Of a stretch of 64,000 nucleotides of DNA, positions 29,623 to 30,012 are shown in pieces (position 1 is the stretch's first letter; every line of letters starts with the position of its first letter). This DNA comes from Escherichia coli. Lineage in GTDB: Bacteria; Pseudomonadota; Gammaproteobacteria; Enterobacterales; Enterobacteriaceae. The notes under the pieces were generated by a model. It was given only the letters and a program-made list of their open reading frames with translations. It made no database searches and had not been told where the DNA came from. The position numbers were made by a program, and so were the translations under genes. Location of the stretch: assembly GCF_024223415.1 (NCBI RefSeq), contig NZ_CP100501.1. One strand, given 5' to 3'.

Positions 29623-30012
29623 ATGATAAAACAAAAGGTATTTTTCTCAGGTGCTGTACTAGCTATTTTTTTATCTCTCAGCAACGTATCTTTGGCTTCC
29701 GGCCTGGATAAAAACATGCAGTCTCTTGCCAAAAGTATGAGTATTCTACAATCTTCCAATGATAAATCATCACTATTAAATGCTCTTGAAATGATGGATA
29801 AATCTGTAGATTCTTCTATGAATATTATTCCTGAAAAGATAGATGTTAATGATAAAGTTTCTGTAGATAATTATAAGGAAGAGTTAAAAAAACTACAACA
29901 TGAAATCAATATTGCAAAAAAGAAAGTTGAGGACGGGAATATAGAATCATTACGTGAGTCTCTGGATAAAATGAACGATATAAAACTTGAAGGTCACCGA
30001 AAATTCAGATGA
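29623..30012 (+). CDS. Cytochrome b562-family periplasmic four-helix-bundle protein
   Basis: Signal peptide plus similarity to remembered CybC (DLEDNMETL vs GLDKNMQSL; C-terminal HQKYR vs HRKFR), heme ligands Met and His conserved; low GC. Confidence 0.6.
   Translation: MIKQKVFFSGAVLAIFLSLSNVSLASGLDKNMQSLAKSMSILQSSNDKSSLLNALEMMDKSVDSSMNIIPEKIDVNDKVSVDNYKEELKKLQHEINIAKKKVEDGNIESLRESLDKMNDIKLEGHRKFR

What the first reader, a model, noticed from the sequence alone, without database searches (positions are those of the whole stretch)
29623..30012. Cytochrome b562-like secreted protein in a low-GC islet
A small signal-peptide protein aligns with cytochrome b562 including the Met and His heme ligands, but is A+T-rich and sits between the 135-bp repeat and an IS2. 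Cytochrome b562 homologs on plasmids are rarely annotated and their role is unknown.
Basis: partly seen in the sequence, partly recalled or inferred. Interest (0 to 1): 0.4.

Follow-up and report, generated by a model that had tools for sequence, protein, structure and literature searches.

The report
Orphan plasmid cytochrome b562 paralogue
The gene is a real, already-annotated plasmid copy of the small periplasmic haem protein cytochrome b562; it is ordinary in itself, but its closest relatives sit directly behind a periplasmic catalase-peroxidase gene, which hints at what this poorly understood cytochrome family does.

Summary
Window 29623-30012 (+) encodes a 129-aa protein that passes the Pfam cytochrome b562 threshold. 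It has a signal peptide, and the Met and His haem ligands are invariant in a 24-sequence alignment. The predicted fold is a four-helix bundle that superposes on E. coli b562 at 1.3 A. The gene is 31% GC in a 52% GC window and lies between a 136-bp repeat and an IS2.

It is not new. RefSeq already names it "cytochrome b562" in 84 plasmids and 138 of 5426 complete E. coli genomes. About 490 further plasmids carry a 45%-identical relative, pO157 L7018.

It is a self-contained cassette with its own upstream region, ribosome-binding site and terminator hairpin. It is not part of the neighbouring carbamoyl-compound catabolic cluster.

The added value is context. The sister lineage and two relatives of about 25% identity lie 28-53 nt downstream of a signal-peptide-bearing catalase-peroxidase (KatP type). 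The window copy has lost that partner.

Best reading: an orphaned periplasmic haem-b electron carrier, probably tied to peroxide defence. Haem binding and function remain untested. Interest is low to moderate.

The parts
29623..30012 (+). CDS of a 129-aa cytochrome b562-family precursor (stop codon included)
   Evidence: ORF. PF07361 at 55.8 bits. Annotated as cytochrome b562 WP_062894334.1 in pCh101. dN/dS is 0.28 against the second allele.
29623..29697 (+). Predicted Sec signal peptide (residues 1-25, cleavage after SLA)
   Evidence: Residue 26 aligns with residue 1 of the mature 106-aa PDB chains of b562. pLDDT is below 50 for residues 1-14 and 20-24, and helix 1 starts at residue 27. The cleavage site is inferred by homology, not measured.
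29508..29622 (+). Upstream region conserved with the second allele. It holds a TATAAT at 29594-29599 and an AGGA ribosome-binding site at 29611-29614.
   Evidence: The alignment of the window with L003 becomes conserved from about 115 nt upstream of the ATG, although the outer flanks are unrelated. The sequence was read. The consensus promoter scan found only a weak site at 29543-29571, no better than shuffles, so the promoter is inferred.
30042..30071 (+). 12-bp stem-loop 30 nt after the stop codon (probable terminator or mRNA-stabilising hairpin)
   Evidence: Minimum free energy is -16.2 kcal/mol, z -3.6, with 0 of 200 shuffles as stable. The equivalent L003 sequence folds the same way (z -4.65) with base changes that keep the pairing. 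The T-run is weak.
29291..29426 (.). Right copy of the 136-bp direct repeat, upstream boundary of the cassette
   Evidence: Found only in the same 85 plasmids, two copies in most.
20603..20738 (.). Left copy of the 136-bp direct repeat, just after a truncated nikB. Together with the right copy it brackets the 8.55-kb catabolic cluster at 20739-29290.
   Evidence: pTB-nb2 carries nikB'-136 bp-b562 with exactly this 8.55 kb missing.
30173..30280 (+). IS2 left end (first ~108 bp), downstream boundary of the cassette
   Evidence: blastn of the intact IS2 from chromosome L009 against the window.
30281..32722 (+). IS66-family element (2442 bp) inserted in the IS2, with an 8-bp target duplication
   Evidence: IS2 query positions 153-160 occur on both sides, at 30273-30280 and 32723-32730. 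The IS66-type orfA, tnpB and transposase ORFs are listed.
32723..33953 (+). Remainder of the interrupted IS2
   Evidence: 95.8% identity to IS2 over 1231 bp.

Best explanation
The ORF encodes a Sec-exported periplasmic four-helix-bundle protein of the cytochrome b562 family. It most likely binds one non-covalent haem b through Met32 and His125 (Met7 and His100 of the mature 104-aa chain) and acts as a small soluble one-electron carrier.

It belongs to an A+T-rich clade found on enterobacterial plasmids. It is a divergent paralogue of chromosomal cybC (19% identity), not its orthologue.

In this window it is a monocistronic cassette of about 570 bp, with a conserved upstream region, a ribosome-binding site, the ORF and a terminator hairpin. 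It is carried as passenger DNA in an IS-rich mosaic of an APEC ColV-type IncF plasmid: nikB' - 136-bp repeat - [inserted catabolic cluster] - 136-bp repeat - b562 - IS2.

The sister lineage (pO157 L7018) and two deeper relatives lie directly downstream of a periplasmic catalase-peroxidase. The clade's ancestral job was therefore probably tied to that enzyme, most plausibly supplying electrons for its peroxidase cycle in the way cytochrome c serves cytochrome c peroxidase. The window copy has lost this partner and now stands alone.

Shown: family membership, ligand and pocket conservation, predicted fold, purifying selection, cassette autonomy, distribution, and the peroxidase adjacency of relatives.

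Inferred: haem binding, periplasmic location, promoter use, and every statement about physiological function.

The confidence of 0.8 covers the identity and architecture claims. The peroxidase-partner function alone I put at about 0.25.
For: Family membership: PF07361 above the gathering score, and the best PDB sequence hits are all b562.

Fold: the AlphaFold model has pLDDT above 90 over the mature part and four helices at 27-44, 48-66, 78-103 and 107-128. All top Foldseek PDB hits are b562; 256b_A gives target-normalised TM 0.91 and rmsd 1.3 A over 104 residues.

Haem site: Met7 and His102 equivalents are invariant in 24 sequences. Pocket positions L3, L10, M33, P45, aromatic 61, L68, basic 98, aromatic 105 and basic 106 are conserved.

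Selection: dN/dS is 0.28 overall and 0.24 for the mature part against the 71%-identical allele in L003, with dS 0.63.

Autonomy: conservation between the window and L003 is confined to about 29508-30075, inside unrelated flanks, and the hairpin is conserved. pTB-nb2 has b562 without the catabolic cluster. The chromosomal copy of that cluster, in about 1500 genomes, ends at the LysR stop with no b562.

Peroxidase link: b562 genes lie 28-53 nt downstream of 730-738-aa PF00141 peroxidases that carry signal peptides. This holds in pO157, pRHB14-C07_2, L005, L012 and L013-L015, each with an SD sequence before the b562 start and, in four of the five (not L012), an intercistronic hairpin. In an NJ tree the window clade is sister to the katP-linked clade, with peroxidase-linked outgroups.

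Expression of relatives: L7018 protein was detected and was 6.3-fold more abundant in vivo (PMC3686733). In Yersinia pseudotuberculosis, cybB and cybC rose 7.5 and 6.7 log2-fold with katG under H2O2 (bioRxiv 10.64898/2026.03.04.709318).
Against: There is no experimental evidence of haem binding or expression for this protein.

It scores below the NCBIfam cytochrome b562 equivalog cut-off (66 against 130 bits).

No katP or katP remnant exists in the window, L003 or L008, so any peroxidase partner would have to be encoded elsewhere in the host.

Several other b562-family genes are solitary plasmid cargo with no peroxidase nearby.

The promoter is not supported by the consensus scan. At 28-31% GC the cassette may be silenced by H-NS (established knowledge, not tested here).

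Damaged alleles exist in databases: a frameshifted signal peptide in P0031 and P0036, and a C-terminus without the His in P0042.

The NJ tree has no support values.
Confidence: 0.8

Rival explanations
1. The gene is the last gene of the adjacent catabolic cluster (cysteine hydrolase, AllH/AllF/AllG-like proteins, carbamate kinase, AH_C protein, cytosine/purine permease, LysR regulator) and serves it as an electron carrier.
For: It lies 433 nt downstream of the LysR gene on the same strand in 119 E. coli records. The same arrangement recurs in L002 with a different b562 allele.
Against: The chromosomal version of the cluster (93.7% identity, about 1500 genomes) ends at the LysR stop and has no b562. 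pTB-nb2 and a chromosomal island carry b562 without the cluster. The 136-bp repeat boundary lies between the two. GC is 31% for the gene against 49-50% for the cluster. L002 is a recombinant allele in the same plasmid scaffold, not independent evidence. The second allele, L003, sits among unrelated plasmid genes.
Confidence: 0.04
2. The protein binds haem but works as a periplasmic haem buffer, scavenger or chaperone rather than an electron carrier. For example it might load haem into Sec-exported apo-proteins such as KatP, or support the iron economy of a ColV plasmid.
For: KatP-type enzymes have signal peptides. If exported unfolded by Sec they must acquire haem b in the periplasm (inference). 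A b562 gene follows them in five independent loci. The window comes from a ColV-type plasmid family that also carries iron-transport genes.
Against: No Fur-box-like site above chance lies upstream (best 13 of 19 matches; 18% of shuffles do as well). No haem transporter is adjacent. The window copy has no client enzyme nearby. E. coli b562 binds haem very tightly, which does not suit a donor role (established knowledge, not tested here).
Confidence: 0.12
3. The gene is a functionless hitch-hiker: a silenced or decaying remnant that persists only because the IS-bounded plasmid segment spread recently.
For: All window-type copies are at least 99% identical at the DNA level, which is consistent with recent spread. 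The setting is IS-rich. The composition is very A+T-rich. The partner gene is absent. Frameshifted or truncated variants occur in databases.
Against: The ORF is intact in 84 plasmids and 138 genomes. dN/dS of 0.24-0.30 against alleles at 71% and 43% identity indicates long-term purifying selection. The ligands, the pocket, the RBS region and the terminator hairpin are all conserved between alleles.
Confidence: 0.1

Closest known systems
E. coli soluble cytochrome b562 (CybC; PDB 256B; Pfam PF07361; NCBIfam NF011632)
   Same: The precursor is about 128-129 aa with a signal peptide and a mature length of 104 against 106 aa. It has Met7/His102-type axial ligands, Pro45, an aromatic residue at position 61, and the basic/aromatic C-terminal motif H-x-K-[FY]-R. 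The predicted four-helix bundle superposes at 1.3 A.
   Different: Identity is only 19%. The score is below the equivalog cut-off. The helix 2-3 loop is two residues shorter, and Tyr101 is replaced by Gly, Phe65 by Leu and His63 by Glu. The gene is plasmid-borne and 31% GC, rather than chromosomal.
pO157 L7018 / WP_001172748.1, the cytochrome b562 gene downstream of katP
   Same: This is the nearest characterised-by-context relative: 43-45% identity, the same 129-aa length, the shared motifs LD(E/K)NMQ.LA, LQSS, LPE and EGH.KFR, and also plasmid-borne and A+T-rich.
   Different: L7018 starts 46 nt after the periplasmic catalase-peroxidase katP, behind a hairpin and an SD sequence. The window gene has no peroxidase neighbour and has its own upstream region.
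Cytochrome c with cytochrome c peroxidase (a class I haem peroxidase, the same superfamily as KatG/KatP)
   Same: This is a functional analogy only: a small soluble haem protein paired with a class I peroxidase in an extracytoplasmic compartment. The gene adjacency is seen.
   Different: The cytochrome here has b-type haem and a four-helix-bundle fold, not c-type haem and a cytochrome c fold. No electron transfer between b562 and KatP has been shown. The analogy rests on established knowledge of peroxidase classes plus inference.

Membership tests
Cytochrome b562 family (Pfam PF07361) | Sequence match to the family profile above the curated threshold | tested here: met
   55.8 bits against a gathering score of 30, E 7.9e-15, full-length match to profile positions 2-102 of 102.
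Cytochrome b562 family (Pfam PF07361) | Axial haem ligands Met7 and His102 (E. coli mature numbering) | tested here: met
   M32 and H125 are invariant in the 24-sequence MAFFT alignment A3. The mapping to E. coli positions is.
Cytochrome b562 family (Pfam PF07361) | Up-down-up-down four-helix bundle of about 106 residues | tested here: met
   The AlphaFold2 model shows four helices with pLDDT above 90. Foldseek against 256b_A gives target-normalised TM 0.91 and rmsd 1.3 A. This is a predicted structure, not a solved one.
Cytochrome b562 family (Pfam PF07361) | Cleavable N-terminal signal peptide and periplasmic location | tested here: met
   There is a basic n-region, a hydrophobic core and an S-L-A motif at positions -3 to -1. 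Residue 26 aligns with residue 1 of the mature PDB chains. This is a sequence-level test only; localisation was not measured.
Cytochrome b562 family (Pfam PF07361) | Binds one non-covalent haem b (reduced alpha band near 562 nm) and cycles Fe(II)/Fe(III) | not testable with these tools
   This needs expression and spectroscopy. Only conservation of the pocket residues supports it.
CybC orthologue (NCBIfam NF011632 / PRK15058 equivalog) | Score above the equivalog cut-off | tested here: not met
   66.3 bits against a cut-off of 130. The protein is 19% identical to E. coli CybC. It is a paralogue, not the orthologue.
KatP-associated plasmid b562 (pO157 L7018 type) | Located immediately downstream of a signal-peptide-bearing catalase-peroxidase gene | tested here: not met
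   tblastn with KatP finds nothing significant in the window (best E 0.4, at an unrelated site), in L003 or in L008.
KatP-associated plasmid b562 (pO157 L7018 type) | Belongs to the same sequence clade | tested here: inconclusive
   Identity to katP-linked members is 43-49%, and the window clade is their sister group in an NJ tree without support values.
AllF/G/H-like carbamoyl-compound catabolic cluster | Gene co-inherited with the cluster wherever the cluster occurs | tested here: not met
   About 1500 chromosomal copies of the cluster lack it, and b562 occurs without the cluster.

The most novel reading that the evidence does not exclude
Cytochrome b562-family proteins, whose physiological role has never been settled, may be dedicated periplasmic redox partners of exported catalase-peroxidases (KatP/KatY type). 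A b562 would feed electrons to the enzyme's compound I/II, perhaps drawing them from the quinol pool via a b561-type membrane cytochrome. This would turn H2O2 removal into a 'cytochrome b562 peroxidase' pathway analogous to cytochrome c peroxidase. On this reading the window gene is an orphaned, independently mobilised copy that can plug into whatever periplasmic peroxidase or oxidant the APEC host meets.
Probability: 0.2. Interest if true: 0.55.

Novelty: already known. Interest (0 to 1): 0.22.

Why it matters
As it stands the finding matters little. It is a correctly guessed family assignment that RefSeq already makes for this exact protein.

The useful by-product is comparative. Cytochrome b562 is one of the most heavily used model and engineering proteins (BRIL fusions, metal-directed assemblies), yet to my knowledge its natural function is unknown. 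Here, at least five divergent lineages place a b562 gene immediately downstream of a periplasmic catalase-peroxidase. In addition, cybB/cybC are induced by H2O2 together with katG in Yersinia, and L7018 protein is more abundant in vivo than in vitro. Together these give a concrete, cheap hypothesis to test.

For APEC ColV plasmids, the gene is one more passenger in the variable region. There is no evidence that it contributes to virulence.

Tried and rejected
1. Operon membership with the upstream catabolic cluster: rejected.

2. A katP remnant near the window gene, near the second allele (L003) or near the Salmonella plasmid copy (L008): none found by tblastn or blastn.

3. Known RNA families in 28900-30400: only two sub-threshold chance hits.

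4. The 136-bp repeat as a structured RNA: folding z-scores of -1.3 and -1.4 are not significant.

5. Fur box upstream: not above shuffles.

6. Sigma-70 consensus promoter: nothing better than shuffles.

7. Genome-contig scan. The clade alignment A4 returned only five loci, all pO157-like katP-b562 contigs or fragments filed under Lachnospiraceae MAGs, Acinetobacter and Terrisporobacter assemblies. These are probably contamination or mis-binning. No chromosomal source species for the clade was found.

8. Word-indexed protein search: found only relatives of at least 67% identity. The exhaustive HMMER search was needed to reach the 25-45% relatives.

9. Literature: no paper links this gene to ColV plasmids. 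I recalled that Yersinia pestis katY lies near cybC/cybB (Garcia et al. 1999), but the paper is not in the held library, so this remains an unverified recollection.

Full report
**Observation.** The window has an ORF at 29605-30012 on the + strand. The ATG at 29623, preceded by AGGA at 29611-29614, gives a 129-aa product. This is the start RefSeq uses for WP_062894334.1, annotated 'cytochrome b562' in plasmid pCh101, which is 100% identical over 29400-30170. The ORF is 31.3% GC (GC3 25%), the stretch 29440-30060 is 28.5% GC, and the window as a whole is 52.3% GC. On the left is a 136-bp direct repeat at 29291-29426, whose partner lies at 20603-20738 with 98% identity. On the right is the left end of an IS2 starting at about 30173. 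That IS2 is itself split after about 108 bp by a 2442-bp IS66-family element with an 8-bp target duplication, and resumes at 32723-33953.

**Family assignment.** Pfam PF07361 (Cytochrom_B562) matches over its full length at 55.8 bits against a gathering score of 30. The NCBIfam equivalog for CybC matches at only 66 bits against a cut-off of 130, and identity to E. coli CybC is 19%. The protein is thus a divergent paralogue, not the orthologue. PDB sequence hits are all b562, the best at E 7e-4. An exhaustive HMMER search of 1.8 billion representatives found only 30 proteins at E<=1e-3.

I aligned 24 sequences ranging from the window protein to E. coli CybC. The only invariant columns were M32, P70 and H125, which correspond to Met7, Pro45 and His102 of b562. 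The positions I recall as lining the haem pocket in b562 keep their character: L3, L10, M33, an aromatic at 61, L68, a basic residue at 98, an aromatic at 105 and a basic residue at 106. The contact list comes from memory; the mapping is computed.

An AlphaFold2 model built on that alignment has pLDDT above 90 across the mature part and four helices at 27-44, 48-66, 78-103 and 107-128. Foldseek against the PDB returns only b562 and its engineered derivatives at the top. For 256b_A the target-normalised TM-score is 0.91 and the rmsd is 1.3 A over 104 residues.

Residues 1-25 form a typical signal peptide. Residue 26 aligns with residue 1 of the mature crystallised protein. The expected location is the periplasm, not the medium.

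**Is it a live gene?** A second allele that is 71% identical at the protein level (P0038, locus L003) sits in an unrelated plasmid context among PerC, SSB, ProQ and YebF genes. Similarity between the two loci is confined to about 29508-30075. That is roughly 115 nt of upstream sequence, the ORF, and about 60 nt downstream including a 12-bp hairpin. The hairpin has z = -3.6 in the window and -4.65 in L003, and the base changes between them preserve pairing. This defines a self-contained cassette of about 570 bp.

The Nei-Gojobori dN/dS between the alleles is 0.28, or 0.24 for the mature part, with dS 0.63. Against a 43%-identical relative it is 0.30. That indicates purifying selection. A third sequence (P0033, L002) is a recombinant of the two alleles in the window-type scaffold. 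The promoter is not established: a TATAAT lies at 29594-29599, but the consensus scan finds nothing better than shuffles.

**Relation to the neighbours.** Upstream lies an 8.55-kb cluster at 20739-29290. It encodes a cysteine hydrolase, AllH-, AllF(FdrA)- and AllG-like proteins, a carbamate kinase, an AH_C-domain protein, a cytosine/purine permease and a LysR regulator. The b562 gene is not part of it, for three reasons.

- A 93.7%-identical chromosomal version of the cluster occurs in about 1500 complete E. coli genomes, including UTI89, ST131 and E. coli B. Homology there stops at the LysR stop codon, and no b562 follows.
- The IncK2/Z plasmid pTB-nb2 has nikB' - 136 bp - b562 with exactly the 8.55 kb missing.
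- A chromosomal island has IS1 - b562 - IS2 without the cluster.

The 136-bp sequence occurs only in the 85 plasmids that carry this module. The simplest history is that the cluster was inserted next to a pre-existing nikB'-136 bp-b562 junction, or was deleted from it by recombination between the repeats.

**Distribution and prior knowledge.** The cassette is found at 99% identity or more in 84 PLSDB plasmids. All are conjugative, 80 from Escherichia and 4 from Klebsiella, and many come from poultry. They include pAPEC-O2-ColV, NC_007675. It also occurs in 138 of 5426 complete E. coli genomes, at 128 plasmid and 20 chromosomal places. tblastn finds a homologue in 580 plasmids. About 494 of these carry the 45%-identical pO157-type gene, and nearly all rows shown are annotated 'cytochrome b562'. 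The claim that plasmid homologues are rarely annotated is therefore incorrect, and the identification itself is not new. I found no paper that discusses this particular gene.

**What the relatives say about function.** The pO157-type gene (L7018, WP_001172748.1) starts 46 nt after the stop codon of katP, the periplasmic catalase-peroxidase of EHEC. The same pairing is seen in pRHB14-C07_2 and in an 87%-identical katP locus whose b562 is only 53% identical to L7018 (L005).

Two relatives of only about 25-30% identity to the window protein are more telling. P0073 lies 28 nt and P0083 lies 53 nt downstream of 730-738-aa PF00141 peroxidases. All these peroxidases carry N-terminal signal peptides. 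An SD sequence precedes each b562 start, and four of the five intergenic regions (all but L012) also contain a hairpin.

In a rough NJ tree the window clade is sister to the katP-linked clade, and the next outgroups are the peroxidase-linked P0083 and P0073. Linkage to a periplasmic peroxidase is thus probably ancestral, and it has been lost in the window lineage. No katP or remnant is present in the window.

Independent expression data point the same way. L7018 protein was detected in O157:H7 strain 86-24 and was 6.3-fold more abundant in vivo in piglets than in vitro (PMC3686733). In Yersinia pseudotuberculosis, cybB and cybC rose 7.5 and 6.7 log2-fold alongside katG (6.8 log2-fold) after H2O2 exposure (bioRxiv 10.64898/2026.03.04.709318).

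Not all family members are linked to a peroxidase. Solitary b562 genes occur in an F-like plasmid between the leading and transfer regions, next to TraU/TraG genes, in an IS-rich region, in an uncharacterised environmental contig, and near sodC on a Salmonella IncF plasmid.

**Mechanism.** I commit to the following. The product is a periplasmic haem-b one-electron carrier. This is inferred from fold, ligands, pocket and purifying selection, with confidence about 0.8. Its clade evolved as a companion of exported catalase-peroxidases.

KatG-type enzymes belong to the class I peroxidases, as does cytochrome c peroxidase (established knowledge). The most economical model is that reduced b562 donates electrons to the peroxidase's oxidised intermediates. 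I give this about 0.25. A haem-delivery or haem-buffering role is the main alternative, at about 0.12.

The window copy lacks the partner. It may act on another host oxidoreductase or may simply be carried along. A purely decaying hitch-hiker seems unlikely given dN/dS and the conserved expression signals (about 0.1). Membership of the catabolic operon is essentially excluded.

**Novelty and score.** The gene is a recognised, database-annotated member of a well-known family. Its setting is a typical IS-mediated mosaic of ColV-type plasmids. I rate it 'already known' with interest 0.22. The recurrent peroxidase-b562 gene pair is the only aspect that could open something new. It concerns the family rather than this locus, and it needs the experiments listed above.

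Noticed in passing
window 20603-20738 and 29291-29426: A 136-bp direct repeat (98% identical) brackets the 8.55-kb AllF/G/H-like catabolic cluster. The repeat occurs only in the 85 plasmids that carry this module. pTB-nb2 has a single copy with the cluster precisely absent. This suggests either insertion by recombination of a circular intermediate or deletion between the repeats. The repeat matches no Rfam family above threshold (right copy scanned) and shows no significant folding.
   Followed up: partly
window 28300-29189 (about 28933): The LysR-family regulator of the catabolic cluster has a 1-nt deletion relative to pCh101: a G is missing in CCTGGTTG. This splits it into ORFs of 230 and 84 aa. 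It is either a pseudogene or a sequencing error.
   Followed up: partly
window 30173-33953: The IS2 is interrupted after about 108 bp by a 2442-bp IS66-family element (30281-32722) with an 8-bp target-site duplication. In other records the IS2 is truncated (pCh101) or intact (chromosome L009).
   Followed up: yes
window 20739-29290: The plasmid catabolic cluster is a 93.7%-identical paralogue of a chromosomal accessory cluster present in about 1500 of 5426 complete E. coli genomes (UTI89, ST131, E. coli B). Carrying a second, diverged copy on ColV-type plasmids is unexplained.
   Followed up: partly
window 19086-19354 and 38075-38324; L007 5431-5700: The sequence just downstream of the pO157 b562 gene, in the interval before espP, is 96% and 90% identical to two places in the window. 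Both places lie within the 18.8-19.5 kb and 37.8-38.5 kb repeat pair.
   Followed up: no
L005, L006, L007, L012, L013-L015: There is a recurrent gene pair: a signal-peptide-bearing catalase-peroxidase (730-738 aa), an SD sequence (preceded by an intercistronic hairpin in all but L012), and then a cytochrome b562-family gene. The pair is conserved even between b562 proteins of about 25-35% identity.
   Followed up: partly
L017-L021 (genome contigs): pO157-like katP-b562 contigs or fragments (96-99% identical to pO157) are filed under Lachnospiraceae MAGs, Acinetobacter idrijaensis and Terrisporobacter mayombei assemblies. These are probably contamination or mis-binning of E. coli plasmid DNA.
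   Followed up: partly
L008 (Salmonella plasmid pCFSAN060804) 2812-5375: A b562 gene of the katP-linked clade lies about 1.7 kb from a plasmid-borne sodC (periplasmic superoxide dismutase), with no katP between them. This is another association with periplasmic oxidative-stress defence.
   Followed up: no
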